A DNA stretch of 58,312 nucleotides from an uncultured Erysipelotrichaceae bacterium (GTDB lineage Bacteria > Bacillota_I > Bacilli_A > RF39 > UBA660): positions 1-58,312 of the forward strand of contig CADCIN010000006.1 in assembly GCA_902801525.1 (NCBI GenBank). Direction: 5' to 3'. Below, piece after piece: positions 9,901 through 36,424 of this stretch. A program made the position numbers and the translations under genes. Under the pieces are notes generated by a model. The model was given only the letters and a program-made list of their open reading frames with translations. It had not been told where the DNA came from and searched no databases. Each line of letters begins with the position of its first letter. Positions within the stretch are counted from its first letter, which is position 1.

Positions 9901-9924
9901 AAAAAAATCTGTATAAACAGATTT
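9901..9924 (-). terminator. Intrinsic terminator at the 3' end of the Tad-T4SS locus
   Basis: AAATCTGT-4 nt-ACAGATTT inverted repeat followed by a T-run on the minus strand. Confidence 0.7.
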
Positions 9925-9934
9925 CTTATTTTAA

Positions 9935-11215
9935 TTATCTAACTTTATAAGGATTTTTTTCAGTTCCCTTACCACTAACATATAATGCATCTTTAGATAA
10001 ATGAACAACAGGTCTTACAAATAGATTTGCTTGAACATTAGCTGAGTAAACACCTTCACCAACACCATAAGCAAAATTAGATTTTAAACCTGATCCATTT
10101 GCAAGCCACCAATAATAATCTTTTATAATTAAATAATTATAATTTTGACAAGAACCAGAAGTAGTACTAGTACAATTTTTATCTATACTAGCATTTAAAA
10201 AATCATTAACTGGAAGTAAAGACATATTTTGATCACCCGCTAGAACAGAACACTCAATTGATCCATCATTAATAGTTTCTTGTTCTCCTCTTACTCCAAC
10301 ACAAGCATCAAACTTTACAAAAGATTTTTTTTCATCTTTAGTTAAAGAAAAATTATAACCCTCTTCAGAAACACCAGATTTATATAATTTTTTTAAATAA
10401 TTTTGAATAGTACTTAAAGAAAACTCATTAAAACCAGTATTAGAGTTTAAATCAGAATTATATCTATCATCCCATAAAGATTTATAAGCTAAGTTTGATA
10501 AAATTAATTCCACTGAATTATCTTGATAAACTTTAACAATTCTCCAAGTATCATCACCAATAGAAATATAATTGTTAACATCTGAACCTCTAAATACTAA
10601 AGAACCATTCATATCATATAGACCAAAACCAGATGTAACAACTCCATTATCATTTTTTAATTTATCAATAAAACTAGTCGTAGTATAATCCTTTCCACAA
10701 TCAAGTTTAGGAACATATTTATAATTACCCTGTTCCATTTTAACAGTTACACTACCTTTACATGAAGTAAATTTAGAATCATATTTTCCAAATTCTTTCA
10801 TATATTCACCTGAAATTAATGAAGAAGATTCAACTATGGAAGGACTGTCTTCATTAGCAGGTAATTTACTCTTATTATCCTTATAATAACTAACAGCTGA
10901 TTCTTTTAATATATTTTCAATATCAGCATAACTATACTTTTTCTTAAAGAAAACAGATAAAACAAATAATAATAAAATAATAACCAAAGATATTACAATA
11001 ACTATACCAAGTAATTTTAAAATTTTACTTCTAAATTCATCTTTATGATTAGAATCATGATTACTATTATAAATAGAAATATTTTTATCATCACTTAAAG
11101 ATTCTTCATTATCACTTAATATATAATCTAAATCTTCATCATTTACATCTTCCTCTTTTATTTCTTTATTTTCTTCATTTATTTTTTCATATTTATCATA
11201 ATTATTACCATTCAT
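9935..11215 (-). CDS. Membrane-anchored surface protein: pilin-like disulfide domain plus DUF6273-like domain
   Basis: Acidic N-terminus, one TM, C..LDCG pair, NNY....WRIV, WWL, VRPVVHL, G.GT..NPY; paralog of 33078-34841. Confidence 0.7.
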   Translation of the reverse strand: MNGNNYDKYEKINEENKEIKEEDVNDEDLDYILSDNEESLSDDKNISIYNSNHDSNHKDEFRSKILKLLGIVIVISLVIILLLFVLSVFFKKKYSYADIENILKESAVSYYKDNKSKLPANEDSPSIVESSSLISGEYMKEFGKYDSKFTSCKGSVTVKMEQGNYKYVPKLDCGKDYTTTSFIDKLKNDNGVVTSGFGLYDMNGSLVFRGSDVNNYISIGDDTWRIVKVYQDNSVELILSNLAYKSLWDDRYNSDLNSNTGFNEFSLSTIQNYLKKLYKSGVSEEGYNFSLTKDEKKSFVKFDACVGVRGEQETINDGSIECSVLAGDQNMSLLPVNDFLNASIDKNCTSTTSGSCQNYNYLIIKDYYWWLANGSGLKSNFAYGVGEGVYSANVQANLFVRPVVHLSKDALYVSGKGTEKNPYKVR

Positions 11216-11226
11216 ATAAAGACCTC

Positions 11227-13452
11227 CTAATTATCAAAAAAATCATCAAAAAAATCATCATCTTCTTCATCATCTTCTTCATCAAGTGAAAGTACATTTT
11301 GTTTGTTACTATCTGAATAAGTTGGAATTTCAGATTTAGTATCTAAAGGATTACTTTCAAAAGTAATATCTTTATTATCACTTATATTTTCACTAGTTTC
11401 AGAAGAATCAGTTTTATTATCATTTTTATGCTTTTCAGCTTCCTCATCCATTTCAGCGATTCTAGCATCTATTTTTCTAAGTAATTCATCTACATCAAAT
11501 CCAAATCCATCATCTTCACCTTCGTCTTGTTCATCATCAATTGGATTAATATGAGGAACTTCTTTAGGTAATTCTCTAATTGGTTCTCTAGCTGCAGGTA
11601 AATTATTAGTAAAGTTTGGAGTTTGACTAAAGAATGGAGGAAAAGGAACTCTAGGAGCAGATTCATTAGAAACTGAACTACTGTGAACATCATCAAGAGT
11701 ATCAGAATCATCATCAGCTACATTCATCATTTCTAATATTTTCTTTTTCTTTTGATCTTTTACAAATTCCTTAATATCAAAAACATGAACCTTTTGTTTT
11801 TCACGATGAGGATATTTAGCTAAAGGATATTTCTTACCCCAATTGATCTTCCAATCAGGAGTAAAATGAGTTTTAAAAGGATTCATACGAAGTCTCATTA
11901 AAATAATATCATTTTCTTTCATTCTCTGAAGATCAGATACAGTAACGAGAGGTGTAGAATCAGTTTTATCATCTTTCTTAGATTTAACGTTACCACACAT
12001 CTTAGAAATTTCTTCCAAAGCTTTTAACTCAGTTGTAACTAAATAAATCATATTACCACAGTTACCACGAAGAGTTTCAGCATCTTCTTTTCCATAAACA
12101 CTATCAAGCTGTGCAAAGTTCTGAATAATCATTGTAAATCTAATTTGTCTACTTCTTGCAGCAGTAATCATTGTAGTAACATCTTTTAAAGGAGGCATGT
12201 TAGCAAACTCATCAAGTAAGAAGTTAGTTCTAATAGGTAATTTACCACCATGTTTTTGTGCACATCTAATTAATGTTTCATATATTTGCTTTAATAAAAT
12301 AGTTACTAATGAATGATATGTTTTCTTTTCATCTTGAATAACAATAAAAACAGCAGTTGGTTTTTCTCCGATAGAATCTAAATCAACATCACTATGTGAA
12401 AGCATCTCACTTAAATTTTCACGAGAAGCAAATAATTTAACTTTACCCTTAAAAACAGAAAGAATAGAACCTTTTGTTTCATTAGGTGCAGTAACTGTTG
12501 AATAAGCATTAACAGCAGCTGCACTAGCAGGATCCTTCATATTAAAATATTCTTTAATATATGTAGAACCACCAAATTTATCTTCACCCTCAGTAGTAAC
12601 TAAGTTAACACTACTAATATTAATTTCCTCTTCTTTAGCATCTTCAAATAATCCAAGAGAAACACCAGAAAAATAATCAGCAGCAGTTTTTTCCCAGAAA
12701 GGATCAGCATTTTTATTTGAAGGGTCATATAAAATATTTAAAGCAAGGTCATCTAATAACTCAATAGCTTTATCTTGATTTCCATCTTTATACATTTTAT
12801 AAGGAAGAGACATTGGATTCCAAGAATTACCGTTTTGAGGATCACGAAAGTTTAATAGAAGTATTTGATATCCTTTATCTCTAAGCATTTCTGAAGTTTT
12901 TTCATAAATTTCACCTTTAGGATCAGTAATAATCATACTCTCACCCTTTTTAGATAAAATCTTGACTGTTGGTAAAATAATTAACTGAGTTTTACCTGAA
13001 CCAGTAGCACCTAAAACTAGTGTATGATTCTCACCATTATCAACCCAAATTTTATCTCCTTTATACATTAAAGGAGTCCCAGCCGCAGTAGTTTTTTCAT
13101 CATTAACATCAATTACTTCTACATTTTTTTGAGTTTGAATTTCTTTATCTTTAGCCCATCTAGAATAACCTTTATCTTTTTTTTCAGTAGTTATACCAAA
13201 TCCCTTTTCTCTATCAAAAAAATAAGAATTAACACTAAAAAACATGGCAGCTAGAATAATCAAATAAAATACAAAAGTTGGTACAAAAAGACCATAAGTA
13301 AAAACAGGTAAAATATTAATACCAGATAAGTATCCCGTTCTAAAAACACTTGCAATATTAGAAACAACAAGTGAAACTACAAAAAATAAGAATACAGCAA
13401 AAATAGCAAAAATCAAAACATCATCTTTATCAGCTCTAAATTTAAATTTCAT
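11227..13452 (-). CDS. virD4: Type IV coupling protein (VirD4/TraG family) with long acidic C-terminal tail
   Basis: Two N-terminal TMs, Walker A GATGSGKT, DPKGE, WNP, Walker B LLDEFAN, ARSR, IIQ..AQL..VYG. Confidence 0.93.
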   Translation of the reverse strand: MKFKFRADKDDVLIFAIFAVFLFFVVSLVVSNIASVFRTGYLSGINILPVFTYGLFVPTFVFYLIILAAMFFSVNSYFFDREKGFGITTEKKDKGYSRWAKDKEIQTQKNVEVIDVNDEKTTAAGTPLMYKGDKIWVDNGENHTLVLGATGSGKTQLIILPTVKILSKKGESMIITDPKGEIYEKTSEMLRDKGYQILLLNFRDPQNGNSWNPMSLPYKMYKDGNQDKAIELLDDLALNILYDPSNKNADPFWEKTAADYFSGVSLGLFEDAKEEEINISSVNLVTTEGEDKFGGSTYIKEYFNMKDPASAAAVNAYSTVTAPNETKGSILSVFKGKVKLFASRENLSEMLSHSDVDLDSIGEKPTAVFIVIQDEKKTYHSLVTILLKQIYETLIRCAQKHGGKLPIRTNFLLDEFANMPPLKDVTTMITAARSRQIRFTMIIQNFAQLDSVYGKEDAETLRGNCGNMIYLVTTELKALEEISKMCGNVKSKKDDKTDSTPLVTVSDLQRMKENDIILMRLRMNPFKTHFTPDWKINWGKKYPLAKYPHREKQKVHVFDIKEFVKDQKKKKILEMMNVADDDSDTLDDVHSSSVSNESAPRVPFPPFFSQTPNFTNNLPAAREPIRELPKEVPHINPIDDEQDEGEDDGFGFDVDELLRKIDARIAEMDEEAEKHKNDNKTDSSETSENISDNKDITFESNPLDTKSEIPTYSDSNKQNVLSLDEEDDEEDDDFFDDFFDN

Positions 13453-13474
13453 AAATAAACTTCCTCTCATAATA

Positions 13475-13503
13475 ATTATACCTTAAATAATCAATTATGT
13501 CAC
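13475..13503 (-). promoter_or_regulatory. Internal sigma-A-type promoter upstream of virD4
   Basis: GTGACA-17 nt-TATAAT. Confidence 0.6.
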
Positions 13504-14282
13504 TATTTATTAGTAGTTACAAGCGTATCAAAACCACCATTTTTATATTTTAAAATTGAAACAATAGGTTTACCATCACTATATTTTCCACAATTAACAA
13601 AAATCTCATATTTATTATCATTATCCAAATCGACTATATTACTAATATAAGCTTTACAAGATCTATAATTATCATCAGAAGAATTATAAAATAATCTACT
13701 AAACTTTCCATTTTTAACCATAAAAACAAGAGAATAATATTTTTTTGCAGTAAAATCATCAGCAAAGGAATTACTAACTACATATATTGATTCATCAATA
13801 CCATCATTATCAATATCAAAAATTTTACGATATAGAGATGTATAATTATTATCGATATCAATTTTATATAATTTAAGAGCTTTATTTAAATTTTTATCTG
13901 AATAATCAACTATAGTATCATCAACATTAAGATATTTAATATCATAATCGTATGTATTATGAATACCTAATAAAGGATCTGAATAATTAATAGGATTATG
14001 TTTAAGATCAAATAAATACCATTTTTCATCAAACCATAAAATTTTTTTTCCAATAGAATTTCCATTTAAATAAACATTATACTTTTTCCAACTATAATCA
14101 TTTATATTCCTACTATTTAATATAATATTATACCATTTTTTATTATCATAATTAAAAACCGCATAATTATCAACAACAACAAATAATTCTTTTTTCTTTT
14201 TATTAGAAAAATAAAAAAACATAAGAAGACCATAAAAAAATAAAATAGAAAATAATATTAAATATTTATAATTTTTTTTCAT
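13503..14282 (-). CDS. Membrane-anchored protein with DxDxDG calcium-blade (FG-GAP-like) motifs
   Basis: One TM; DIDNDGIDE and DLDNDNKYEI; start MKKNY with GGGGTG RBS. Confidence 0.7.
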   Translation of the reverse strand: MKKNYKYLILFSILFFYGLLMFFYFSNKKKKELFVVVDNYAVFNYDNKKWYNIILNSRNINDYSWKKYNVYLNGNSIGKKILWFDEKWYLFDLKHNPINYSDPLLGIHNTYDYDIKYLNVDDTIVDYSDKNLNKALKLYKIDIDNNYTSLYRKIFDIDNDGIDESIYVVSNSFADDFTAKKYYSLVFMVKNGKFSRLFYNSSDDNYRSCKAYISNIVDLDNDNKYEIFVNCGKYSDGKPIVSILKYKNGGFDTLVTTNK

Positions 14283-22362: not shown

Positions 22363-22416
22363 GTAAATCACCACAATAAAAGTATAACAAATAAAATAAA
22401 AATTATCAATATAAAT

Positions 22417-22442
22417 AAAAAAAAACACATAAATGTGTTTTT
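22417..22442 (-). terminator. Terminator after the VirB2-like pilin
   Basis: AAAAACACA-4 nt-TGTGTTTTT hairpin with T-run. Confidence 0.65.
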
Positions 22443-24655: not shown

Positions 24656-24714
24656 TATTAAAACACATCCTTTCATATATAATACATAGTAATAACTACA
24701 TACCCTACAATATT

Positions 24715-26437: not shown

Positions 26438-26447
26438 AAAACACCTC

Positions 26448-28055: not shown

Positions 28056-28118
28056 ATTCTCACATCCCAATTTATTCTTTTGTTCTTTTATTATTTATTC
28101 TTTTTTATATTAATAATA

Positions 28119-28938: not shown

Positions 28939-29412
28939 TTAATATTCCTTATCAAATGATTTACCATCATAAATCTTAACATCTTGTCTTGAATTATAAT
29001 TAGTTAAATTATCTTTTTTGTAGTTAGATTCTAATATTGCATCAATATTAGTAGATAACTTAGCAGAAGAACCATTAAATGAAACAGCAGAATCAGAATC
29101 TACTTTAACACTTACTTTAGGTGGAACTTCATTTAAATCATAGAAACGAACATCATATTCTCTAGTATTATCAACAGATTCAGCAAATCTTCTTAAAAAT
29201 GATTCAACAAATTTATCACTATCCATTCTAATAACACCGTTTACACTATAATAATTAAAATCTCTTGCATCAAGCATTGCTGCTTCTGTAGTTTCTTTAA
29301 CTAAATAATAATCTAATTCACTACCAGTGTTAGCACTTGTAATTAAATTAATTAATACAAATGCCATAGCTGATAGTAAAATAATTCCAACTGATAAAAT
29401 AGCTTTATTCAT
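28939..29412 (-). CDS. DUF5411-like pseudopilin
   Basis: N-terminal hydrophobic helix, YYLVKETTEAAM.DA, F...F...F, PPKVSV. Confidence 0.6.
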   Translation of the reverse strand: MNKAILSVGIILLSAMAFVLINLITSANTGSELDYYLVKETTEAAMLDARDFNYYSVNGVIRMDSDKFVESFLRRFAESVDNTREYDVRFYDLNEVPPKVSVKVDSDSAVSFNGSSAKLSTNIDAILESNYKKDNLTNYNSRQDVKIYDGKSFDKEY

Positions 29413-29415: not shown

Positions 29416-32277
29416 TTAATTTTCTCCTTTACAATCATCTCTTACATCATTTTTAGAAAAATGATTACAAGCAAGTTTTCTTGTTCTAACAGGTGTAATT
29501 ATACCTTTACCTCTAAATAAAGGACTTTGATAAGTACGAATTCCATTTTCTACTATGTAAGAATCAGAATCAGAAGCAAAATCACTTAATTTTTTATACT
29601 TATTATAATCACGAATCTTTTTTAAATCTTCTTTAGTTAATTTAAATTCATACTCTAAATAATCATCTGAATAAACTTTATCTTTTAAATTTTCAATTCT
29701 TTCTTTAATAACACTAGGTTTAACTAAATAATCTGAATTATTTAGATTCTCAGCTTGTCTTGTCCAGTTAAATCCAATATCATCACTACTTCTACTTTGA
29801 ATAGTCTCTGAATTAGTATTAAATAAATTTCCGTTGTTTACAGATCTCCAAATGAAATCATCTGTTTGTGGATTTGGATTCTTTGTACAAGCTTCTTCAG
29901 AACCACTAGTATTATCATCTTTAGAATTCTTTATACTATCTGTAGATTTACCAGATGCGAAGAAACAACCAAGGTCAATATCCCATTTAAAATTATCATT
30001 AAATTCTGACCAATCAAAGCCAAAATTTTTAACTGAAGCAGTAATATTATATTTAATACTATCAGTTATTTTTTTATAAACCTTACTATTTGAATTTTCA
30101 GGAATCTTTGAACAACCATACTTTTCGTCATCTTCTTTAACTAAAGTATTCGTATACCAATTAAACCAAGTTTCATTTACAGTGCTCGAATTTAATGGTA
30201 AACAAAATTTATTAGTTCTGACCCAACCAGAATAATCTTTAGGTCTTTGTGTAGTTCTATCATTATGTTTAAAATCAACATATGAATAAGGTAAATTCCA
30301 TTCTAATAAGTATTTATTTTCTTCATCTTTATTACCATAGCACTTAGAATAATCATATATAACACTATCATTTCTAAATGGATAAGATCTTTGGCCATCA
30401 ATTTTATTTGTTAAATAAGTTTCATCTTTATCATTAGTAGCATTTATTTTAACAGTAACTTCCTTAGTATGTTTAGAACATGTTACTGTACCTGTACAAC
30501 TCTTTATTGTTTCATTATATAATTTCATATCATCATCATATTTTTTTTGATCAAAATAAATAGCAGTACCTAATAGTTCATCAGGACAAGAAACATTATT
30601 ACCACGATTACCAGATGAATCATATGCTTCCCATGTACAAGTCTCTTTACAGTTGCTAGCTCTTAAGAAACCGTCTCTAGTATAGTAATATTGACCATTG
30701 CGCAAAATACCCCAAAAACCATTATATGGATGACCAGCCAAATTAGTAAGAGCACGATAAATACGATCTTTTGTTCTAAAATATGCAGAACCAATAGAAC
30801 TATATAAATCATCAGTTACAGATTTCCAAACAATTGAATTACCATTCCAATAATAATAACCATTTTTTTTATAATATTCAATAAGATTTCCATTATTATC
30901 ATAACTAGCATATCTATTAATAATAGAATCTAAATCATTAATCTTAATCTTACAAAAATCACCAGTACATGAAGTTTCATAACCGTCAGGTGATATATCA
31001 ATTCCTAAATTAGTAACTGAATATGTATCAAAAACATTTGTTAATTTATTAGCTTTATTATTTTTTTGTTTACCATACACTTTTTTGTAACAAGTATTTA
31101 TACATTTTTGACTGTACTTACCACCATCACATTTATTTACACAATTATCAAATTCTTCACTTGGACCTGCCTGATCTTTTGTTTTTTCACTAATATAATT
31201 ACAGCTACCAACAACTGAACAACCAGGTATATAGTAATTAGTAATTACCGGTTTAGGAGCTTGCATATTAACATAACCACAAGTAACTTCACTATCAACC
31301 TTAACACGATATTGGAAACAAGCTCCAGCTTTTACAGCAACAGGTGCACCATATCTAACAGTTAATTTTTCAGTACATTTCTTTGTACATGTAAATGTTT
31401 GGCCCTTAGAACCTGTTTTATTAATTACTACTTTCTCATTAGTATGATAGTATCTTTTTGTATTAGCTTCCAAATAATACTTATCACCATCTAAAGGATT
31501 TGTATTATGTTTTTTATCACTAGCCCATGAATCTGACTCAAAACTAGAAGTGCGACTTAATCCATTACGTGCCCAGGGATCACATTTTAAACTAATTTTA
31601 CCATTATTAACAAGTGTAAAGCCATTAGTATTAACATTATTCATTTTTTCTATATTAGCATCAATCTTTGATTGAGTATCATAAAACTTAAAAAAAGATA
31701 TAATAGAATTTACTAACTGTAATTCACTAATTGGCTTATCTGATACACTATCACATAATGATATAAAGTCTTTATCATTTAAAACATCAGATTTATGAGG
31801 ACCAAATAAAGTTAAAGAACTTTTAATATTATTTTTAGCTCTGTCATTGCTTATTGAATTAATAATATCACTATAATTACCATTTTTAAAGCCATTACAA
31901 ATATTAACAGCTTTTTGATTATTAATTTTAGTTGTTTTAATTGATTGAAAACTTGCTGGAAAAGTAAATTCACAATTAGAATAACTAGCAATTAATGTAA
32001 AGACGCAATCTTTATCATTAGGGCAAGTAAATGTCACCTTGTCACCAGCATTTACTGAACCTTTTTCATTAGTTTCATCACCATCAATATACTTTTTAAT
32101 TTCATAATCAGCATCAACTTTAGGAGAAAAAATTAAGTTTCTACCCTTTTGACTAAACACGTCTTCTTCTGGAGCACAAGCATTTGTTTCAGCATTAACA
32201 ATACTATAATTACATAAAGTAAAAATACATATTAAGCTAAATAAAACAACCCCTATTCTATGCTTTATTATTTTCAT
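29416..32277 (-). CDS. Large Cys-rich secreted protein, putative adhesin
   Basis: Signal peptide ending VNA; about 30 Cys, several CxxxC pairs; no C-terminal TM. Confidence 0.75.
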   Translation of the reverse strand: MKIIKHRIGVVLFSLICIFTLCNYSIVNAETNACAPEEDVFSQKGRNLIFSPKVDADYEIKKYIDGDETNEKGSVNAGDKVTFTCPNDKDCVFTLIASYSNCEFTFPASFQSIKTTKINNQKAVNICNGFKNGNYSDIINSISNDRAKNNIKSSLTLFGPHKSDVLNDKDFISLCDSVSDKPISELQLVNSIISFFKFYDTQSKIDANIEKMNNVNTNGFTLVNNGKISLKCDPWARNGLSRTSSFESDSWASDKKHNTNPLDGDKYYLEANTKRYYHTNEKVVINKTGSKGQTFTCTKKCTEKLTVRYGAPVAVKAGACFQYRVKVDSEVTCGYVNMQAPKPVITNYYIPGCSVVGSCNYISEKTKDQAGPSEEFDNCVNKCDGGKYSQKCINTCYKKVYGKQKNNKANKLTNVFDTYSVTNLGIDISPDGYETSCTGDFCKIKINDLDSIINRYASYDNNGNLIEYYKKNGYYYWNGNSIVWKSVTDDLYSSIGSAYFRTKDRIYRALTNLAGHPYNGFWGILRNGQYYYTRDGFLRASNCKETCTWEAYDSSGNRGNNVSCPDELLGTAIYFDQKKYDDDMKLYNETIKSCTGTVTCSKHTKEVTVKINATNDKDETYLTNKIDGQRSYPFRNDSVIYDYSKCYGNKDEENKYLLEWNLPYSYVDFKHNDRTTQRPKDYSGWVRTNKFCLPLNSSTVNETWFNWYTNTLVKEDDEKYGCSKIPENSNSKVYKKITDSIKYNITASVKNFGFDWSEFNDNFKWDIDLGCFFASGKSTDSIKNSKDDNTSGSEEACTKNPNPQTDDFIWRSVNNGNLFNTNSETIQSRSSDDIGFNWTRQAENLNNSDYLVKPSVIKERIENLKDKVYSDDYLEYEFKLTKEDLKKIRDYNKYKKLSDFASDSDSYIVENGIRTYQSPLFRGKGIITPVRTRKLACNHFSKNDVRDDCKGEN

Positions 32278-33067
32278 TTTCAACATCTCCCTCTAAAATC
32301 TTACTAATTTTTTTATAGTTAGATTTTTTAGTTATTTTATATTTATTTCTAAACTCATTCTTATGAACTAATCTAGCATCTATTTTAAACATATAATCAG
32401 AATATTCACCAAACATTCTTGTACATGTTAATAAAGTAATGACCTTATCATCTTTTGATACAGAAACATCATATTTATAAAAACTATCTTTTAATGATTT
32501 ATTAATATATTTATTTAATTCATCTTTACTAAAACTATTCGAATAATAATCAACATCACTATCATGAACAAATGATATAGAAAATATTTTATAAACATAA
32601 TCTCTACCATCAATAGTAAACTGAACATATTCATTATCTTTAGCAAAGTCATAATAAACAAAAGAAAGTAATTGTTCAAATCTTGTATGATTTTTATCAG
32701 TAATAAGAGGCTGTGAAGAAGAATTTAAAATATTATGTCCTATTACAAACATTCTATTTTCCAATTTTTTACTATTCTTATTAGTCCAAAGAAAATCATC
32801 TAAATTAAAAGAATCAACCGAATAATCATCTGAATTATAAATAACCGGATAATTAATATTAGTTCCTTGAACCTTTAACCAACCAACAACATCTGTATCA
32901 AACTTTTTCTTATTAACTGTATTATTTACACTCTTAATACCACTTGTAAATATTTTAGGATATAAAATATTTTTAATAGTGAAAAAAGAAAGAATAATTA
33001 TTACAATAATACACAAAATCAAAGAAAAAACTTTTAATTTTTTCTTTGAATTATTCATCTTTTTCAT
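32258..33067 (-). CDS. srtB: Class B sortase
   Basis: N-terminal TM, DVVGWL.V.GT.INYPV, GHN (His), YKIFS, TLLTC (Cys). Confidence 0.85.
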   Translation of the reverse strand: MKKMNNSKKKLKVFSLILCIIVIIILSFFTIKNILYPKIFTSGIKSVNNTVNKKKFDTDVVGWLKVQGTNINYPVIYNSDDYSVDSFNLDDFLWTNKNSKKLENRMFVIGHNILNSSSQPLITDKNHTRFEQLLSFVYYDFAKDNEYVQFTIDGRDYVYKIFSISFVHDSDVDYYSNSFSKDELNKYINKSLKDSFYKYDVSVSKDDKVITLLTCTRMFGEYSDYMFKIDARLVHKNEFRNKYKITKKSNYKKISKILEGDVENENNKA

Positions 33068-33077: not shown

Positions 33078-34841
33078 CTATTTAACTATAATATAAGGAT
33101 TATATAAAGTACCATTTCCACTCTTAATAGTAACGTCATTTTTTAAATAAGTAACCAAACTCACATCATATTCTTCATCATCATAATTAATATAATTTAA
33201 ATCTCCATTAGAAGAAGTATTAAATGACACATTTTTATTTTTGGAAGAATTAATCATCCAACATCCTTTACAAGAAGTAGAAAATAAATCATAAATATTT
33301 GCTGCTGCAATATTAGTTTTATATGTATCTTCTCTCTTATGATCATTATATTTAGCATATTTATTATAAACAGGAACTTTAATATTTTTCTTAGCTAAAT
33401 AAGAAGTATCTAAATTTTTAGTCATATCATTAGATATAAAATATCCAACATTACCTTTAGTTTTAGGATTATAAATCTTTACTTTAGAATCATTATATTT
33501 TGTAGAAATAATACTGTAATTAGAACTTAATATAATCTTTGAAGTACTATCTACATCTTTTTCAATAAATCTCCAAATCGAATTTGAATATCTAATATAT
33601 TCACCTGTATTAATTGTATTAACTTTATCTCCAGGATTTGCTTTTTTACTTGATTCAAATTTATAAGGACTAGTTATTGTACCATTTCCACCAGTTAATA
33701 ATATGTTACCTTTAATTGCAATCATAGGATAAATAGCATAATTATAATTATTACCAAGTGAAATAAATCTCTTGCCATAACTATCGCCCACAAAAACATT
33801 TTTTGTAATTAAGATTTTATTATCTTTTGTATTAGGTAATATAGTTAATACTCTAGGTGACAAGTAAGAAAAACCATCTTTATCATATGAATTATTATAA
33901 TCAACAATAGAAGGAATATATACATTTCTTGCTTTTGTATATTTACTACACTTAGTAGTATTTAAATCATTAACTTCACCAGTACAATATTTACTCTTAA
34001 CTACATATTTTTTAGCAGAATTTGATAAATGATCATAAAAATTATCAGACCAGTTATCTATACCATCATAATCAATATAAGAAATAGCATCATTGCTAAC
34101 TATTTTGACATTACCATTTTCATCCACACCATATATTCTAAATAACATATTAGAAAACTCAATATAATTATTATTAACATTACCTTTATAAGTATTACCA
34201 TTATTTGTATCTTTCTTAATAACATTTTTAAGTCTTAATACAACTTTAATATTTCTAGTTTTAACTGTTTTGTTATCTAAACTATCAATAGCAGTATATT
34301 TAATCTTATAAGTACCAATTTTATTAGTATTAACCTTACCAGTAATATCAACTTCTTTAGTATTAATTTCACCATCTGTATTATCACTAACTTTTTTAAC
34401 ACCAAGTTCTGTATACTTATCACCTTTATTAATAACTATTGAATCTTTTCCATTAAGCTCAATATTAGGGCCATCATGATCAACTATTGATGAATATATA
34501 CCACATCTTAAATATGTATAATATTTTAAATTACCAGATTCATTTTTAATTTTAACAAAACTTGAATCAACATTACATAACTTACTAGAAAGGGGCACTT
34601 TTAAATCATTTTCAATTAATTTAGCACTATATAAAGTAGAAAGTTTAATAGTTCTAACTCTACTTCCTGTAGGAGCTAATTCACTATTAACTTCTAAATA
34701 TCTTTTTGCAGCATTTAATAAAACCTTTTCATTATTCTTAAACTTAGCAAATGGATAAATAACAAATAAACATAAACAAAAAATAACTAAAGCAAAAATA
34801 ATAATTAATTTTAAATTTTTCTTTATCTTCTCTAATTTCAT
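33078..34841 (-). CDS. Surface protein: pilin-like domain, DUF5011/Ig-like domain, two DUF6273-like repeats
   Basis: TM; D..GP.I.L.G...DNTDG...GTY.I.Y.A.DS..N Ig motif; two GNGT..PY-ending repeats. Confidence 0.75.
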   Translation of the reverse strand: MKLEKIKKNLKLIIIFALVIFCLCLFVIYPFAKFKNNEKVLLNAAKRYLEVNSELAPTGSRVRTIKLSTLYSAKLIENDLKVPLSSKLCNVDSSFVKIKNESGNLKYYTYLRCGIYSSIVDHDGPNIELNGKDSIVINKGDKYTELGVKKVSDNTDGEINTKEVDITGKVNTNKIGTYKIKYTAIDSLDNKTVKTRNIKVVLRLKNVIKKDTNNGNTYKGNVNNNYIEFSNMLFRIYGVDENGNVKIVSNDAISYIDYDGIDNWSDNFYDHLSNSAKKYVVKSKYCTGEVNDLNTTKCSKYTKARNVYIPSIVDYNNSYDKDGFSYLSPRVLTILPNTKDNKILITKNVFVGDSYGKRFISLGNNYNYAIYPMIAIKGNILLTGGNGTITSPYKFESSKKANPGDKVNTINTGEYIRYSNSIWRFIEKDVDSTSKIILSSNYSIISTKYNDSKVKIYNPKTKGNVGYFISNDMTKNLDTSYLAKKNIKVPVYNKYAKYNDHKREDTYKTNIAAANIYDLFSTSCKGCWMINSSKNKNVSFNTSSNGDLNYINYDDEEYDVSLVTYLKNDVTIKSGNGTLYNPYIIVK

Positions 34842-34852
34842 AAATATCTCCC

Positions 34853-36424
34853 TTATTTTAAAACATAAACATATTTTTTGTTTCTAATAGTAATATTAAT
34901 TTTAATAGACTCTGAACTAACTAACTCATCTGGAACATAAGTATATAAATACTTTCCATAATAATTTGTTTCAATTGGATTTTCAACTGCTATTTTCCTG
35001 TTACTACCTTTACTATCTTTATATACAATTTTACCATATTTAGATAAAATGTCAATCAATTCTTTACCATCAGAGTAATCAGATGAAAAAGAAATTTTCA
35101 TAATCTTTTTACCAGGTATACTATTAACATTTAATTCAGAAACTTTACATTCATCAAATGTACAAACATTCTTATAATAACTTGCATTATCACCAAAAAC
35201 ATAATCTCTTAAAGTAAAATCATAATCATCATCAAGTAAACCAAAAGAAATATTTTCATTCATTTTTTTCTCTTTTTGTTTAATTATTTTAGATACATCT
35301 TTAACTTTAATCTTAATTTTTCTAAGTTGTGTCATATTAAATCCATTAATTTCTTGATAATATAATACAAACTTATCATTTTCTAAATCTTTAGAAACTT
35401 TATAAATTAAAGTAAATTTAGATGTTTGACCACTTCTTAGTGTAAAATTATCAACTATATTATCAAAATCTTCAAAATCAGTCGCATAATTATCAGAAGT
35501 ATAAGTATATGAATCTACGCCATTTTTAATATGGAATTTATTAAAGTCAACTTCTCGATCATCATTAATAAGATTTTTAATATTAACTTCTAGTATTAAA
35601 AACTTATTATTATGATCAATTACATTTCCTGTATAATCTTTATCTGTAATATATGCATTACTAATATTAATTAAAAAATTATTAGATTGAAAATCCTGTC
35701 CTTGTTTATAAACCTTATTAATAATAAATATATTTCTGTAAATTAAAAATGAAATAAATAATAAACCTATAAATAACGAAAAACTAATTTTAAATTTATG
35801 TTCTTTATATACATAAGTTAAATTTCTAAATAATCTTTTAATACTTCTTTTAATAGAATGTTTATCAAATTCAAAGTTAATTTCAATCTCTTCTCTATCT
35901 TCACTACTAAGATCCAAATATTCTTTATCATTTTGAAAACTGAATTTGGAAAGATCAAGTCCAATAATTCTAACAAGTAAAAATACAAATACTGGATAAT
36001 TTAAGAAATATGTTATAAAAAATAAATCTCTAAGCGCTCTTATATTTGTTGTATCAGACATATTTCCTGTATAACCAGTAAAAAAGTTATATGTAAATAT
36101 ACAAGTTAAGCCAAATAATAAATAAGTTCCAATTGGAAGTATATATAACTTCCAAGGTTTTTTCTTATATCTTAAAAGAAATAATAAAACTCCAAACAAG
36201 AAAAAAAGTAAAAATAAATCCAGTACAAGCCATATATTAATATACTTACTAATTGGATCACTTATTTGATCATAAGTTTGAAACTCCATAAATTGTCTTA
36301 CAAAGTCTCTTAAAGTTATATTAATATAAAATATAAATACAGATAATATTAATAAAGCAATATGAATCTTACGAAAATGTTTTATTAAAAATGCATAAGG
36401 TTTTCTAATAATCATATTAAACAC
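34853..36424 (-). CDS. Multi-TM membrane protein with extracellular beta-rich (DUF4352-like) domain
   Basis: About 5 TMs, then KFLILEVNIKN-type strands; first gene of the long co-oriented run. Confidence 0.65.
   Translation of the reverse strand: MFNMIIRKPYAFLIKHFRKIHIALLILSVFIFYINITLRDFVRQFMEFQTYDQISDPISKYINIWLVLDLFLLFFLFGVLLFLLRYKKKPWKLYILPIGTYLLFGLTCIFTYNFFTGYTGNMSDTTNIRALRDLFFITYFLNYPVFVFLLVRIIGLDLSKFSFQNDKEYLDLSSEDREEIEINFEFDKHSIKRSIKRLFRNLTYVYKEHKFKISFSLFIGLLFISFLIYRNIFIINKVYKQGQDFQSNNFLINISNAYITDKDYTGNVIDHNNKFLILEVNIKNLINDDREVDFNKFHIKNGVDSYTYTSDNYATDFEDFDNIVDNFTLRSGQTSKFTLIYKVSKDLENDKFVLYYQEINGFNMTQLRKIKIKVKDVSKIIKQKEKKMNENISFGLLDDDYDFTLRDYVFGDNASYYKNVCTFDECKVSELNVNSIPGKKIMKISFSSDYSDGKELIDILSKYGKIVYKDSKGSNRKIAVENPIETNYYGKYLYTYVPDELVSSESIKINITIRNKKYVYVLK

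What the first reader, a model, noticed from the sequence alone, without database searches (positions are those of the whole stretch)
9901..36424. Chromosomally embedded hybrid Tad-pilus plus type IV secretion locus with no mobility functions
Seen: about 21 intact co-oriented genes. A Tad/Flp set (CpaB, TadA, TadB, TadC, Flp-like pilin, two pseudopilins, TadZ-like) runs straight into a Gram-positive T4SS set (VirB2-like x2, VirB6, VirB3, TrsD-like, VirB4, hydrolase, VirD4), with a sortase and large surface proteins. The locus sits between greA and rhodanese/rmuC and uses ordinary sigma-A promoters. No relaxase, integrase, excisionase, Rep, ssb, topoisomerase or flanking repeat is recognisable. 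Knowledge: ICE/plasmid T4SSs come with a relaxase; from memory, the pXO2/pAW63-type Bacillus plasmid transfer regions have a similar VirB11/Tad-like plus VirB4/VirD4 mix. Inference: a domesticated contact-dependent machine in which the Tad pilus grips a target cell and the T4SS moves proteins or DNA. It could support an epibiotic or parasitic lifestyle, by analogy with the relaxase-free T4SS of Saccharibacteria.
Basis: partly seen in the sequence, partly recalled or inferred. Interest (0 to 1): 0.92.

Follow-up and report, generated by a model that had tools for sequence, protein, structure and literature searches.

The report
Inherited pilus-plus-secretion machine in gut bacteria
A 26-kb block of genes for a thin adhesive pilus and a cell-to-cell transfer channel, of a kind normally carried by conjugative plasmids, is a fixed and vertically inherited part of the chromosome in a whole family of small-genome, uncultured gut bacteria, which points to cell contact and transfer as part of how they live.

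Summary
Window 9935-36424 carries 22 co-oriented minus-strand ORFs: a Tad-like set (CpaB, TadA/VirB11-type ATPase, two membrane proteins, a Flp-sized pilin, pseudopilin-like proteins, a TadZ-like protein) followed by a monoderm T4SS set (two VirB2-like proteins, VirB6, VirB3/PrgI, TrsD-like piece, VirB4, wall hydrolase, VirD4), plus a sortase and surface proteins. No relaxase, recombinase or bounding repeat lies in it.

It is not an ICE. The VirB4 occurs in 192 of 201 genomes of the order (94 of 99 genera) and in 0 of 218 genomes of 26 other families of the class. It often keeps the same greA and rhodanese/rmuC flanks. Its tree shares 13 of 21 splits with the DnaE tree, and it evolves about three times slower than DnaE.

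Its nearest mobile relatives (27-32% identity) are Bacillus pBMB67-type plasmids with the same two-part layout and a MobP3 relaxase.

No relaxase family tested is as widespread as the machine.

Best reading: a domesticated conjugation-derived contact machine, most likely moving DNA. A Saccharibacteria-like host-dependence role is not excluded. Function is inferred, not shown.

The parts
9935..11215 (-). 426-aa membrane-anchored surface protein ending in G-x-G-T-x-x-N-P-Y; probably a DUF6273-type domain
   Evidence: ORF and sequence. DUF6273 matched 8 of the 132 orthologue sequences scanned; I did not check which rows, but the 16 homologues of this protein are the likely carriers. Homologues were found at the VirD4 end of the block in 9 of 20 genera. 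The C-terminal motif is repeated in the 587-aa protein (family D5).
11227..13470 (-). VirD4-type coupling protein (T4CP), 747 aa, with an acidic C-terminal tail; the only one in the genome
   Evidence: PF02534 E 1.4e-59, TraG-D_C, TrwB_AAD_bind. NCBIfam CD1115 family 308.8 bits, above the cut-off of 250. It is the sole PF02534 match in G000. PF02534 matched 99 of 101 genera. 31% identical to the pBMB67 VirD4.
13503..14282 (-). About 259-aa protein with an N-terminal membrane helix and an all-beta outer domain with DxDxDG-like motifs; role unknown, not VirB8-like
   Evidence: AlphaFold2 model has pLDDT 84.6 and pTM 0.79. No PDB match at E <= 0.001; best E 8.8e-3, TM <= 0.23. No Pfam or NCBIfam match. 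The ATG start at 14282 was chosen by reading.
14287..16641 (-). 784-aa wall hydrolase (VirB1 analogue): membrane anchor, SpoIID/LytB domain, C-terminal Cys/His domain
   Evidence: PF08486 SpoIID E 1.2e-6. TIGR02669 SpoIID_LytB. The C-terminal papain-like reading comes only from my reading of the sequence, not from a tool.
16687..18474 (-). VirB4 ATPase, C-terminal 595-aa part, with Walker A and B intact
   Evidence: NF045975 (mycoplasma ICE VirB4 family) E 9.7e-105, model positions 296-891 of 894. AAA_10 and TraG P-loop. 67-85% identical in 23 of 24 other genera of the family. 28% identical to the pBMB67 VirB4.
18474..19025 (-). TrsD-like protein: the VirB4 N-terminal domain encoded as a separate 183-aa protein
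   Evidence: NF045975 positions 99-280, E 2.6e-14. Found next to VirB4 in 20 of 20 and 11 of 11 genomes examined. 28% identical to the pBMB67 ORF in front of its VirB4. The statement that TrsD is a remote homologue of the VirB4 N-terminus is from PMC12102498 (passage).
19000..19320 (-). VirB3/PrgI/TcpE-like small membrane protein, 106 aa
   Evidence: Among the 132 sequences scanned, which included 28 copies of this protein, PrgI matched 3, TcpE 2 and VirB3 1. Position between VirB6 and TrsD/VirB4 as in pBMB67. Present in 20 of 20 genera.
19339..21444 (-). VirB6/TrbL-like polytopic membrane protein, 701 aa, with a long C-terminal extension
   Evidence: PF04610 TrbL E 7.2e-5, below the cut-off. 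NCBIfam pLS20_p028 family E 2.2e-6. Found in 20 of 20 genera at 23-31% identity.
21460..22428 (-). 322-aa secreted Cys-rich protein with a C-terminal VirB2-like two-helix hairpin
   Evidence: BLASTP against the 132-aa pilin-like protein: 26% over 62 aa, E 0.001. No Pfam match. A 781-aa protein of plasmid CP074574 has a similar weak C-terminal T4SS_pilin match, E 0.0012.
22453..22851 (-). VirB2-like T4SS pilin, 132-aa ORF
   Evidence: PF18895 T4SS_pilin E 8.6e-5 for the window copy. 15 sequences of the 132 scanned match, best E 4.8e-7; 23 copies of this protein were in the set. Found in 19 of 20 genera.
22855..23934 (-). TadZ/CpaE-like protein: receiver-like N-domain plus ParA/MinD-like domain with a degenerate P-loop
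   Evidence: AlphaFold2 model has pLDDT 82.3. Foldseek: the C-terminal domain matches ParA 3cwq_B (TMt 0.50), HypB 2hf8_A (TMt 0.55) and FlhG; the N-terminal domain matches RcsB-type receivers (prob 0.99). No Pfam match. Found in 17 of 20 genera. That TadZ has this architecture is recalled, not tested.
23955..24404 (-). 149-aa pseudopilin-like protein (short charged leader ending in G, then a hydrophobic helix)
   Evidence: Alignment of 19 copies shows a conserved M-R/K-D/E-x-x-G-G/x leader followed by a hydrophobic stretch. No family match.
24500..24676 (-). Flp-sized pilin; the likely true start is at 24655 (51 aa), giving MKAA(T/S)GE(L/M)N(L/M)T followed by a hydrophobic helix
   Evidence: ORF. 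Alignment of 14 copies shows a conserved leader and helix but no EY motif. Found by tblastn in 9 of 20 genera. Processing is untested.
24759..25541 (-). TadC-like platform membrane protein, 260 aa
   Evidence: Atlas structure look-up: TM 0.58/0.72 to a cluster that is 100% PF00482 T2SSF; feature score 0.95 to a GspF-named cluster. 28% identical to the pBMB67 ORF after its ATPase, E 9e-6. Against: no T2SSF match, no PDB sequence match, no hhalign link to the CP074574 T2SSF protein.
25541..26464 (-). TadB-like platform membrane protein, 307 aa
   Evidence: Atlas features: 0.99 to clusters auto-named TadB (these may be its own cluster), 0.94 to a GspF-named cluster, 0.92 to a cluster with 25% PF00482. 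Against: no T2SSF match, no PDB match. 54-77% identical across 22 orthologues.
26448..28070 (-). TadA/CpaF/VirB11-type hexameric ATPase (residues about 1-300) with a 240-aa N/S/T-rich tail
   Evidence: PF00437 T2SSE E 2.6e-29. TIGR02788 VirB11 E 1.4e-34 and TIGR03819 TadA-family conjugal-transfer-associated ATPase E 8e-30, both below cut-offs. 28% identical to the pBMB67 ATPase.
28119..28916 (-). CpaB/RcpC-like protein with a SAF domain
   Evidence: PF16976 RcpC 27.6 bits (cut-off 28.8) and SAF 21.3 bits (cut-off 21). TIGR03177 CpaB E 1.5e-8. 32% identical to the pBMB67 SAF protein. tblastn hits 363 plasmid records, 357 of them Bacillus.
28939..29412 (-). DUF5411 protein, 157 aa, with an N-terminal hydrophobic helix (pseudopilin-like by position)
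   Evidence: PF17424 E 7.7e-46. Alignment.
29416..32286 (-). 956-aa Cys-rich secreted or surface protein; variable accessory part
   Evidence: No family match. 27-29% homologues only in G022, G021 and G001 of 11 genomes. Partial hits in 4 of 20, where the stretches were cut.
32258..33067 (-). Sortase (class B-like)
   Evidence: PF04203 E 1.6e-8. TIGR03064 srtB E 1.2e-14, below the cut-off. No LPXTG-type end was seen by eye in the neighbouring proteins.
33078..34841 (-). 587-aa membrane-anchored surface protein with an Ig-like domain and two G-x-G-T-x-x-(N/S)-P-Y motifs
   Evidence: PF16403 E 4.5e-18. Motif repeats (D5).
34853..36424 (-). 523-aa polytopic membrane protein with a DUF4352-like domain; upstream end of the block
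   Evidence: PF11611 E 2.2e-4, below the cut-off. Homologues in G022, G021, G001 and G003.
9582..9902 (-). Flank: rhodanese, followed by VTT, rmuC and trpS
   Evidence: The same flank is seen next to the locus in G022, G001, G003 and G030; G037 has rhodanese with asnS, and G021 has VTT, rmuC and trpS without rhodanese. Rhodanese is found in 10 of 20 further genera.
37396..37872 (-). Flank: greA
   Evidence: greA lies at the same end of the locus in G022 and G021.

Best explanation
SHOWN. The block is a two-part machine of conjugative-plasmid ancestry. One part is a Tad-like pilus: CpaB, TadZ-like, TadA-type ATPase, two platform-like membrane proteins and small pilins. The other part is a monoderm T4SS: VirB2-like proteins, VirB6, VirB3/PrgI, TrsD plus VirB4, wall hydrolase and VirD4. 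It has become a fixed, vertically inherited part of the chromosome of one family of small-genome (0.6-1.6 Mb) gut Bacilli. By the titles of the nearest records this is probably order RF39, family CAG-611. The block carries no relaxase or recombinase of its own. It is under strong purifying selection.

INFERRED. It still works as a contact-dependent transfer machine.
- The Tad-like filament and the surface proteins make or stabilise cell contact, as the homologous module presumably does for pBMB67/pAW63-type plasmids.
- The hydrolase opens the wall.
- VirD4 recruits substrate to the VirB4/VirB6 channel.
- The most likely substrate is DNA. First, the integrative mobilisable elements that litter these genomes encode a MOBV relaxase but no channel, and would be served in trans. 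Second, and less certainly, chromosomal DNA may be exchanged between kin without a relaxase, as in mycoplasma chromosomal transfer. That would give the cell itself a benefit (repair and recombination in a shrinking genome) and so explain why the machine is kept where no relaxase is seen.
For: Vertical, core, non-mobile:
- VirB4 orthologues (67-85% identical) occur in 23 of 24 other genera of the family, in 192 of 201 genomes and 94 of 99 genera of the order, and in 0 of 218 genomes of 26 other families of the class.
- PF02534 VirD4 occurs in 99 of 101 genera, and in 81 of 81 high-quality genomes.
- The greA end is conserved in G022 and G021. The rhodanese/rmuC end is conserved in G022, G001, G003 and G030, and G021 keeps VTT, rmuC and trpS there.
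- The T4SS gene order is kept in 20 of 20 further genera.
- The VirB4 and DnaE trees of the same 24 genomes share 13 of 21 splits (label shuffles: mean 0.19, max 2). 8 of 8 strongly supported VirB4 splits are compatible with all strong DnaE splits.
- Median tip length is 0.14 for VirB4 against 0.47 for DnaE. Identity is 67-85% for VirB4 against 43-67% for DnaE.
- GC3 is 0.102 against 0.109, and synonymous-codon usage correlates at r 0.985 with flanking genes.
- No recombinase or relaxase lies in the block and no bounding repeats were found.

Conjugative ancestry:
- The best plasmid matches are pBMB67-type B. thuringiensis plasmids and Mycoplasmatota plasmid CP074574. Both carry the same hybrid layout.
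- Six window proteins from both halves match pBMB67 at 28-32%. pBMB67 has a MobP3 relaxase next to its VirD4.
- The VirB4 falls in the mycoplasma-ICE VirB4 family model.

DNA as substrate:
- G000 has three Mob_Pre genes. Two lie beside serine-recombinase genes and two beside Abi genes; a KilA-N gene adjoins one. It has only one VirD4.
- Mob_Pre occurs in 49 of 101 genera. By my cross-tabulation, 30 of those 49 show a single PF02534 match.
- DNA of one such element matches 180 of 401 family genomes. It is 90-91% identical over 1.1-2.0 kb in G042 and G176, whose VirB4 proteins are only 71-72% identical to the window's. These elements therefore move between genera.
- Mycoplasma ICE channels move chromosomal DNA without a known relaxase (passages of PMC12857230).
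Against: - No transfer, expression or pilus has been observed.
- The machine is kept in about half of the genera without any of the four relaxase families tested: 50 of 101 by my union. One example is G021 (0.8 Mb, 98% complete). Serving mobilisable elements therefore cannot be the selected function.
- Conservation tighter than DnaE is more than one expects for occasional gene exchange.
- The closest functional analogue, the relaxase-less T4SS of Saccharibacteria, is needed for epibiotic growth, not for conjugation (passages).
- The genome already has ComEC, a second strong T2SSE ATPase and a prepilin peptidase for DNA uptake.
- MAGs under-sample mobile DNA, and 'matches are not copy numbers'. 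FtsK/TcpA-type coupling proteins and MOBC/MOBF/MOBH/MOBM/MOBB relaxases were not searched.
- In three genera the Tad and T4SS halves lie apart, and in one the TadA orthologue was not found. The two halves need not work as one.
- G002 has only a VirD4 remnant with stop codons and no VirB4, so loss is possible.
Confidence: 0.5

Rival explanations
1. Host-dependence organ, as in Saccharibacteria. The machine is used to attach to another cell, bacterial or host, and to inject effectors or draw resources from it. These small-genome bacteria would depend on it for growth.
For: - Gene content parallels the Patescibacteria T4SS: VirB4 + TrsD + PrgI/VirB3 + VirB6 + VirB2-like pilins, chromosomal, lineage-wide, without relaxase (passages of PMC12102498). 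There it is essential for epibiotic growth (passage of PMC12857230).
- It is kept in genomes as small as 0.7-0.8 Mb (G060, G021, G048, G041).
- It is conserved more tightly than DnaE.
- It is retained where no relaxase was found.
- Adhesin-like proteins and a sortase lie beside it.
- The lineage is uncultured according to PMC11680825 (passage).
Against: - No effector, and no sign of epibiosis, is known or shown for this lineage.
- All sequence relatives with a known role are conjugative.
- VirD4 is retained and conserved here, whereas in the one tested Saccharibacterium t4cp was not essential (passage).
- The metabolic dependence of this genome was not examined here.
- One genus appears to have lost the T4SS (G002).
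Confidence: 0.25
2. Two machines that are neighbours by descent only. The Tad-like pilus serves adhesion (mucus, food particles, biofilm). The T4SS serves an unrelated role.
For: - In G087 the TadA orthologue lies about 27 kb from VirB4. In G058 and G092 it lies on another contig. In G050 no orthologue was found although VirB4 and VirD4 are present.
- A Tad-like operon without a T4SS is described in another small-genome gut clade, TANB77 (passage of PMC11680825).
Against: - The two halves are adjacent and co-oriented in the window and in most genera examined: 15 of 20, plus G089 just outside the fetched stretch, plus 6 of 10 (G032 left out).
- The same pairing occurs on plasmids as distant as B. 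thuringiensis pBMB67 and Mycoplasmatota CP074574. That argues for a functional unit.
Confidence: 0.1
3. DNA uptake or DNA release system (ComB-like or gonococcal-island-like) rather than cell-to-cell transfer.
For: - T4SSs of these kinds exist without relaxase-dependent conjugation; I recall this and tested nothing on it here.
- Tad pili drive DNA uptake in some bacteria (title and abstract of PMC8513845 in the listing).
- Weak NCBIfam similarity of VirB4 and VirD4 to the archaeal DNA-import proteins CedD and CedB: E 1.8e-10 and 6.9e-5, far below cut-offs.
Against: - A separate ComEC, a strong T2SSE ATPase and a prepilin peptidase are present elsewhere in the genome.
- VirD4 and the surface adhesins fit contact-dependent delivery better.
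- The Ced-like scores are generic P-loop similarity.
Confidence: 0.08
4. An ordinary or decaying integrative conjugative element.
For: - Its components are those of conjugative elements.
- Conventional ICE-like clusters with relaxase, VirD4 and a 780-850-aa VirB4 do occur sporadically in the family, for example G019:C2 and G013:C22.
- G037, of another family (DnaE 39%), carries a 71% VirB4 on a 27-kb contig. This is either transfer or a binning error.
Against: - Near-universal presence, conserved flanks and a tree congruent with DnaE.
- All ATPase motifs intact, and no internal stops in the 25 full-length VirB4 orthologue matches.
- Host-like codon usage, and no recombinase, relaxase or att repeats.
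Confidence: 0.02

Closest known systems
Transfer regions of Bacillus cereus-group plasmids of the pBMB67 type (and, from the literature, the pAW63/pXO2-like tra region)
   Same: Same two-part layout. One part is VirD4, small protein, TrbL/VirB6, PrgI, a TrsD-like ORF and VirB4. The other is a SAF/CpaB protein, an AAA ATPase, a T2SS/T4P/T4SS-family ATPase, two membrane proteins and small pilin-like ORFs. Six window proteins match at 28-32%. pAW63 is described as encoding VirD4, VirB4 and VirB11 homologues (passage of PMC9673590).
   Different: - Those regions sit on plasmids and have a MobP3 relaxase next to VirD4. The window block is chromosomal and lineage-fixed, and no match to that relaxase exists in the genome.
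- Gene order of the two halves is inverted relative to pBMB67.
- The window adds a sortase, large surface proteins and recognisable VirB2-like pilins.
- pBMB67 itself is only a 'putative' conjugative plasmid (passage).
Chromosomal relaxase-less T4SS of Patescibacteria/Saccharibacteria
   Same: Lineage-wide and chromosomal in reduced genomes, usually without a relaxase. Built from VirB4, TrsD, PrgI/VirB3, VirB6 and VirB2-like pilins, with MPF-FATA ancestry (passages of PMC12102498; PMC12857230).
   Different: - Different phylum.
- Here VirD4 is adjacent and conserved, a wall hydrolase is present, and a Tad-like pilus module is fused to it.
- Whether the VirB4 belongs to the Patescibacteria clade was not tested.
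- Essentiality and epibiosis are unknown here.
Mycoplasma integrative conjugative elements and mycoplasma chromosomal transfer
   Same: The best NCBIfam model for the VirB4 is the Mbov_0397 mycoplasma-ICE family, when TrsD-like piece and ATPase are taken together. No canonical relaxase. Related host lineage: the class sample holds genomes that read TGA as sense. A minimal channel moves chromosomal DNA (passage of PMC12857230).
   Different: - Mycoplasma ICEs are mobile, patchy and wall-less systems without a hydrolase (passage).
- This block is fixed and has a wall hydrolase, a sortase and a Tad module.
- The score is below the model's cut-off (351 against 590 bits), because the protein is split and divergent.
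Tad/Flp (type IVc) pili of monoderms, for example the Tad-like operon reported in gut clade TANB77
   Same: CpaB, a ParA/TadZ-like protein, a TadA/CpaF ATPase, platform proteins and several small one-helix proteins in one operon of an uncultured small-genome gut lineage (passage of PMC11680825).
   Different: Here the pilus genes are joined to a T4SS. The pilin lacks the G/XXXXEY motif. T2SSF membership of the platform proteins is not shown by sequence.

Membership tests
Conjugative T4SS of monoderms (MPF-FATA type) | VirB4-family ATPase | tested here: met
   NF045975 E 9.7e-105, CD1110 family E 1.3e-49, TIGR00929 E 3e-24; AAA_10 and TraG P-loop.
Conjugative T4SS of monoderms (MPF-FATA type) | Coupling protein (VirD4 or TcpA type) | tested here: met
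   PF02534 E 1.4e-59. CD1115 family above its cut-off.
Conjugative T4SS of monoderms (MPF-FATA type) | VirB6-like and VirB3/PrgI-like membrane proteins, and a wall hydrolase | tested here: met
   TrbL E 7e-5 and SpoIID E 1e-6. PrgI, TcpE and VirB3 matches in 6 of the 132 sequences scanned, which included 28 copies of the 106-aa protein. All are weak, but the positions are as in pBMB67.
Conjugative T4SS of monoderms (MPF-FATA type) | VirB8-like (PrgL/TcpC/TraM) NTF2-fold protein | tested here: not met
   The only positional candidate tested (13503-14282) folds as a membrane helix plus an all-beta domain, with no PDB match. The other unassigned proteins were not folded.
Conjugative T4SS of monoderms (MPF-FATA type) | Cognate relaxase (and oriT) with the system | tested here: not met
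   - None in the block.
- In G000, PF03432 is below its cut-off, and PF02486 and PF03389 gave no match. The pBMB67 MobP3 protein has no match.
- Mob_Pre is present, but on other contigs in mobilisable elements.
- MOBC, MOBF, MOBH, MOBM, MOBB and oriT were not tested.
Integrative conjugative element | Integrase or recombinase at a border, with att repeats | tested here: not met
   None of the tyrosine-recombinase matches lies in window 9935-36424. The only serine-recombinase match on the window's contig is at 55660-56094. No credible flanking direct repeats were found. The only tRNA is at 55108-55181.
Integrative conjugative element | Patchy distribution and a phylogeny discordant with the host | tested here: not met
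   192 of 201 genomes. 13 of 21 splits shared with the DnaE tree, against at most 2 in 1000 label shuffles.
Tad/Flp pilus (type IVc filament) | TadA/CpaF-type ATPase | tested here: met
   PF00437 E 2.6e-29. TIGR03819 E 8e-30 and VirB11 E 1.4e-34, both below cut-offs, so TadA and VirB11 cannot be told apart.
Tad/Flp pilus (type IVc filament) | TadB/TadC platform proteins of the T2SSF family | tested here: inconclusive
   No PF00482 match among the 132 sequences scanned, 46 of them TadB- or TadC-like. No PDB sequence match. hhalign probability 0.2-1.7%. In favour: Atlas structure TM 0.58/0.72 to a 100% T2SSF cluster, and feature scores 0.92-0.95.
Tad/Flp pilus (type IVc filament) | CpaB/RcpC and TadZ/CpaE accessory proteins | tested here: inconclusive
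   RcpC 27.6 bits against a cut-off of 28.8, and TIGR03177 34 bits against 71. The TadZ-like two-domain model is consistent with the recalled TadZ architecture, but no TadZ entry was among the top 50 hits.
Tad/Flp pilus (type IVc filament) | Flp pilin with the G/XXXXEY processing motif, and a dedicated TadV peptidase | tested here: not met
   The conserved leader is MKAA(T/S)G-E(L/M)N(L/M)T without EY. The only A24 peptidase is a 260-aa ORF on contig C8, not in the block. The canonical motif is recalled.
Patescibacteria-type chromosomal T4SS | Lineage-wide chromosomal locus without a relaxase, built of VirB4, TrsD, PrgI, VirB6 and VirB2-like pilins | tested here: met
   The feature list is taken from passages of PMC12102498.
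Patescibacteria-type chromosomal T4SS | VirB4 inside the monophyletic Patescibacteria clade | not tested
Patescibacteria-type chromosomal T4SS | Required for growth on a host cell | not testable with these tools
   This needs culture and genetics.

The most novel reading that the evidence does not exclude
A second, independent case of the Saccharibacteria solution. In a whole family of uncultured, small-genome gut Bacillota (probably RF39/CAG-611), a plasmid-derived Tad pilus plus T4SS has become a core lifestyle organ, on which the cells depend for living on or with other cells. The same subtype (TrsD + short VirB4 + PrgI + VirB6 + VirB2-like pilins) may be the long-sought monoderm source, or a sister, of the Patescibacteria T4SS. 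The VirB2-like pilins of that system were thought absent from MPF-FATA systems.
Probability: 0.2. Interest if true: 0.9.

Novelty: new variant of a known kind. Interest (0 to 1): 0.72.

Why it matters
RF39-type bacteria are common in human and animal guts, have never been grown alone, and have very small genomes. A 26-kb contact-and-transfer machine takes 2-3% of such a genome and is kept more tightly than the replicative polymerase DnaE. That is a strong pointer to how they live.

If it moves DNA, it is a chromosomally encoded 'public' conjugation channel. It would explain how relaxase-only elements spread through the family. It would also offer a way to introduce DNA into these organisms.

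If it mediates dependence on partner cells, it points to which partners to use for cultivation, and it gives a second lineage in which to study the Saccharibacteria-type T4SS.

It also shows that VirB2-like pilins and the TrsD/VirB4 split occur in a Bacillota T4SS. This bears on the origin of the Patescibacteria system.

Finally, it draws attention to the unstudied Tad-like half of Bacillus plasmid transfer regions.

Tried and rejected
Nothing was used.
- Expression: the look-up of sequencing runs listed 14 runs. Four RNA-labelled runs held only small shares of the sampled words (0.05-0.14).
- BipA/TypA as a species marker: identities are bimodal within the family, 49-53% or 69-91%. It was dropped in favour of DnaE.
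- VirB8-like test of the 259-aa protein: negative.
- T2SSF membership by sequence: negative.
- The promoter claim does not exceed chance, and only one terminator-like site was found, on the plus strand.
- Flanking repeats: only AT-rich or Walker-motif chance families.
- Literature searches found no paper describing a T4SS or this locus in RF39: RF39 + 'type IV secretion' (3 irrelevant papers); RF39/UBA660 + VirB4/VirD4/Flp/Tad; RF39 + T4SS (2 irrelevant); RF39 + pilus (4 papers, only the TANB77 paper relevant); CAG-611 + related terms (none holding CAG-611).
- G037: its 71% VirB4 on a 27-kb contig, in a genome whose DnaE is 39% identical, was left unresolved between transfer and mis-binning.
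- Rows dropped: orthologue ORFs with internal stops were removed before alignment. These were 1 of 8 for the 259-aa protein, 2 of 24 for the pilin-like protein, 2 of 13 for DUF5411 and 1 of 14 for the small pilin. Trees used the 24 genomes that had both proteins. That left out G002, G012, G025, G028, G033 and G038 (no full VirB4) and G032 and G037 (no DnaE locus fetched).
This call repeats it with that field filled.

Full report
**What is there.** The window is one whole contig (C6) of a 1.26-Mb, 51-contig genome with 25% G+C, rated 94.9% complete. Between 9935 and 36424 lie 22 minus-strand ORFs that overlap or are separated by about 100 nt at most.

The high-coordinate, upstream end holds:
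- a 523-aa membrane protein with a DUF4352-like domain;
- a 587-aa Ig-like surface protein;
- a sortase;
- a 956-aa Cys-rich protein.

The Tad-like set follows:
- DUF5411;
- CpaB/SAF;
- a T2SSE ATPase that scores equally as VirB11 and as the 'TadA family conjugal transfer-associated ATPase';
- two polytopic membrane proteins;
- a Flp-sized pilin;
- a 149-aa pseudopilin-like protein;
- a 359-aa protein.

The T4SS set follows:
- a VirB2-like pilin;
- a 322-aa protein with a VirB2-like C-terminal hairpin;
- VirB6/TrbL;
- a VirB3/PrgI-like protein;
- a 183-aa protein;
- a 595-aa VirB4;
- a SpoIID-domain hydrolase;
- a 259-aa protein;
- VirD4;
- a 426-aa surface protein.

The 183-aa protein matches positions 99-280 of the mycoplasma-ICE VirB4 model NF045975, and the 595-aa protein matches positions 296-891. 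VirB4 is therefore encoded in two pieces.

**Checks on the weaker labels.**
- The 359-aa protein models (pLDDT 82) as a receiver-like domain plus a ParA/MinD/HypB-like domain. This is the architecture I recall for TadZ. No TadZ entry was among the top hits, so I call it TadZ-like only.
- The two membrane proteins gave no T2SSF match in Pfam (none among the 46 orthologue sequences scanned). A PDB profile search gave nothing, and profile-profile comparison gave nothing.
- The Atlas look-up places them next to clusters named TadB/GspF. For the 260-aa protein it gives TM 0.58/0.72 to a pure T2SSF cluster. This is a lead, not proof.
- The small pilin has a conserved MKAA(T/S)G-E(L/M)N(L/M)T leader and a hydrophobic helix in 14 genera, but no Flp EY motif.
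- The 259-aa protein between the hydrolase and VirD4 is a membrane helix plus an all-beta domain with no PDB match. No VirB8-like component was identified.
- Promoter-like sites do not exceed shuffled sequence: 139 against 146 +/- 12.

**Is it mobile? No.**
- The block contains no recombinase, relaxase or Rep family. It has no credible bounding repeats. No tRNA lies nearer than 55108.
- Its G+C (0.263 against 0.244 for the rest of the window), its GC3 (0.102 against 0.109) and its synonymous-codon usage (r = 0.985) match the flanking housekeeping genes.
- The VirB4 has orthologues at 67-85% identity in 23 of 24 other genera of the same family. It is found in 192 of 201 genomes, 94 of 99 genera, drawn from the order.
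- In a sample of the class it occurs in 26 of 27 genomes of the family. It also occurs in the single genome of a second family and in 1 of 3 genomes of a third. It occurs in 0 of 218 genomes of 26 further families.
- PF02534 VirD4 is found in 99 of 101 genera, and in 81 of 81 high-quality genomes.
- Two of the eight family genomes without a VirB4 match (G118, G136) do have a core-type VirD4. Some of the misses are therefore assembly gaps.
- G002 has only a VirD4 remnant with stop codons, which looks like a real loss.

**Synteny.**
- In G022 and G021 (other genera) the block lies between greA on one side and VTT, rmuC and trpS on the other. G022 also keeps the rhodanese gene there.
- G001, G003 and G030 keep the rhodanese/rmuC side. 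G037 keeps rhodanese and asnS.
- In 20 further genera, VirD4, VirB4, TrsD-like, VirB3-like and VirB6 are found in the same order in 20 of 20. The pilin-like gene is found in 19, the TadZ-like gene in 17, and TadA/B/C in 15.
- Of the five without TadA in the fetched stretch, G089 has it just outside the stretch. G087 has it about 27 kb away on the same contig. G058 and G092 have it on other contigs. G050 shows no orthologue.

**Trees.**
- The VirB4 and DnaE trees of the same 24 genomes share 13 of 21 internal splits. In 1000 label shuffles the mean was 0.19 and the maximum 2.
- 7 of 8 VirB4 splits with SH-aLRT of at least 95 are identical in the DnaE tree, and all 8 are compatible with its strong splits.
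- VirB4 evolves about three times slower than DnaE: median tip 0.14 against 0.47, and identity to the window 67-85% against 43-67%.
- This is a vertically inherited core locus under strong constraint.

**Who carries it.** The nearest named records are uncultured gut 'Bacilli/Tenericutes' MAGs, 'Mycoplasma sp. CAG:877' and Candidatus Faecimonas gallistercoris (494 relatives were confirmed, of which 80 were kept). Ca. Faecimonas is GTDB genus CAG-877, order RF39, family CAG-611 (passage of PMC8035907). I therefore take the family to be RF39/CAG-611 or its current equivalent. This is an inference from titles, not a classification of the genome.

**Where it came from.**
- tblastn of VirB4 against 72,556 plasmids gives nothing above 30% identity. 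The best hits are a Mycoplasmatota plasmid and B. thuringiensis plasmids of the pBMB67 type.
- Both carry the same hybrid. One part is VirD4, TrbL, PrgI, an ORF and VirB4. The other is a SAF protein, an AAA ATPase, a CpaF-type ATPase, membrane proteins and small ORFs.
- Six window proteins from both halves (VirD4, VirB4, TrsD-like, TadC-like, TadA, CpaB) match pBMB67 at 28-32%.
- CpaB-like genes occur on 363 plasmid records, 357 of them Bacillus.
- pBMB67 has a MobP3 relaxase directly before VirD4. That protein has no match in the window's genome.
- The Tad-plus-T4SS pairing is therefore an old conjugation module. In this family it has lost its relaxase and its mobility.
- A review of B. cereus-group conjugation describes the VirD4, VirB4 and VirB11 homologues of pAW63, and calls pBMB67 a putative conjugative plasmid. 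It never uses the words pilus or pili (0 occurrences). The Tad-like half appears to be undiscussed there.

- The genome does have relaxases: three Mob_Pre (MOBV) genes on contigs C1, C3 and C9. The C3 and C9 copies lie next to serine-recombinase genes. Abi_2 genes adjoin the C1 and C9 copies, and a KilA-N gene adjoins the C3 copy. This is the make-up of integrative mobilisable elements.
- The genome shows 14 serine-recombinase matches but a single VirD4.
- Across one genome from each of 101 genera, Mob_Pre occurs in 49, PF03432 relaxases in 12, Rep_trans in 3 and MobA_MobL in 0. By my union of the lists, 51 of 101 have at least one and 50 have none.
- The PF03432 genes sit beside extra VirD4 and long VirB4 genes, for example G019:C2 and G013:C22. 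These are ordinary ICEs and make a useful contrast with the core block.
- Of the 49 Mob_Pre-bearing genomes, 30 show only one PF02534 match (my cross-tabulation). The tool warns that matches are not copy numbers.
- DNA of the C9 element (Abi, Mob, recombinase) matches 180 of 401 family genomes, 133 of 214 genera. Identity reaches 94% over 2.0 kb and 95% over 1.2 kb.
- In G176 and G042 the matches are 91% and 90% identical, while their VirB4 proteins are 72% and 71% identical to the window's. These elements are therefore moving between genera now.

**How it most likely works.**
- Shown: the parts list, the ancestry, the fixation and the constraint.
- Inferred: that it is still a contact-dependent transfer machine.
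- I favour DNA as the substrate, at about even odds, for three reasons. Every relative with a known role is conjugative. A conserved VirD4 is the sole coupling protein in many genomes. And relaxase-only elements abound and spread in the family, and they need a channel in the donor cell.
- Serving selfish elements cannot explain why half of the genera keep the machine without a detectable relaxase, nor why it is kept more tightly than DnaE. A benefit to the cell is needed.
- Relaxase-independent exchange of chromosomal DNA, as mycoplasma ICE channels perform (passage of PMC12857230), would supply one.

**The main rival.** About one in four: the machine mediates dependence on a partner cell, as the gene-for-gene similar, relaxase-less, essential T4SS of Saccharibacteria does. 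Nothing here separates the two readings. The genome's separate ComEC, second T2SSE ATPase and prepilin peptidase make a pure DNA-uptake role less likely. The occasional separation of the two halves keeps open the possibility that they act independently.

**Novelty.**
- Five searches for RF39 with T4SS, pilus or component names found no description of this locus. Supplements were closed.
- The kinds are known: monoderm conjugative T4SS with a Tad-like module, and lineage-core relaxase-less T4SS in Patescibacteria. What is new is their combination as a core trait of a Bacillota family.
- It also bears on a statement in the literature. The 2025 review says that VirB2 is not found in Gram-positive T4SSs except in Patescibacteria. 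The Patescibacteria paper says that VirB2-like pilins are absent from MPF-FATA. Here PF18895 matches 15 of the sequences scanned, which included 23 copies of the pilin-like protein. The best E is 4.8e-7, mostly below Pfam's cut-off.
- I rate it a new variant of a known kind, of considerable interest, with function unproven.

Noticed in passing
G000 contig C2:1-27400 (loci L115, L116): Downstream of valS lies a probable mobile element. A 295-aa duplicate of the valS 5' part precedes the full gene. The element holds an HTH protein, ParA, ParB, and an 833-aa protein that fuses a thioester domain and a SpaA fold to a VirB4/TraG-type P-loop. It also holds a 1285-aa VWA protein, a reverse transcriptase and a large serine recombinase. 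An adhesin-like domain fused to a VirB4-like ATPase is odd.
   Followed up: partly
window 55108-56628: A tRNA-Gly gene is followed at once by a 330-aa large serine recombinase and unknown ORFs running to the contig end. This is probably the edge of an integrated element.
   Followed up: no
G000, whole genome: There are 14 serine-recombinase matches and 5 tyrosine-recombinase matches in a 1.26-Mb genome. Four large serine recombinases stand in tandem on C2:97.5-102.6 kb. This is a very dense mobilome for so small a genome.
   Followed up: partly
window 52479-54293 (BipA/TypA) and its matches in relatives: Identity to the window's BipA is bimodal within one family: 69-91% in 12 genomes and 49-53% in 11. 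A genome of another family reaches 69%. This suggests replacement by a foreign copy or two ancient paralogues.
   Followed up: no
G037:C76 (loci L032, L033): A genome of another family (DnaE 39% identical) carries the whole locus with a 71% VirB4, together with rhodanese and asnS, on one 27-kb contig. This is either lateral transfer of the block with its flanks or a mis-binned contig.
   Followed up: partly
window 9946-9975, 33092-33121, 33662-33691: The motif G-x-G-T-x-x-(N/S)-P-Y ends the 426-aa protein and occurs twice in the 587-aa protein, including at its end. It may be a sorting, cleavage or assembly signal, perhaps linked to the neighbouring sortase, which has no obvious LPXTG substrate nearby.
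   Followed up: no
window 26448-27170: The secretion ATPase carries a 240-aa C-terminal tail rich in N, S, T and V. The tail is poorly conserved: relatives align over only 63-81% of the protein.
   Followed up: no
G000 C11:8718-9866, C13:25419-26165, C8:19447-19770: A second, canonical T2SSE ATPase (E 2.7e-120), ComEC and a prepilin peptidase lie elsewhere in the genome. This is a separate type IV pilus or competence system beside the Tad-like one.
   Followed up: no
G089:C4, G050:C1, G092:C2: A further T2SSE-type ATPase with a 446-aa frame, 28-30% identical to the window's TadA, is present in three of the five genomes checked. Its system was not examined.
   Followed up: no
window 36483-37340: A 285-aa secreted Tyr/Asn/Lys-rich protein between the block and greA has no family match and no homologue in the 11 relatives examined.
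   Followed up: no
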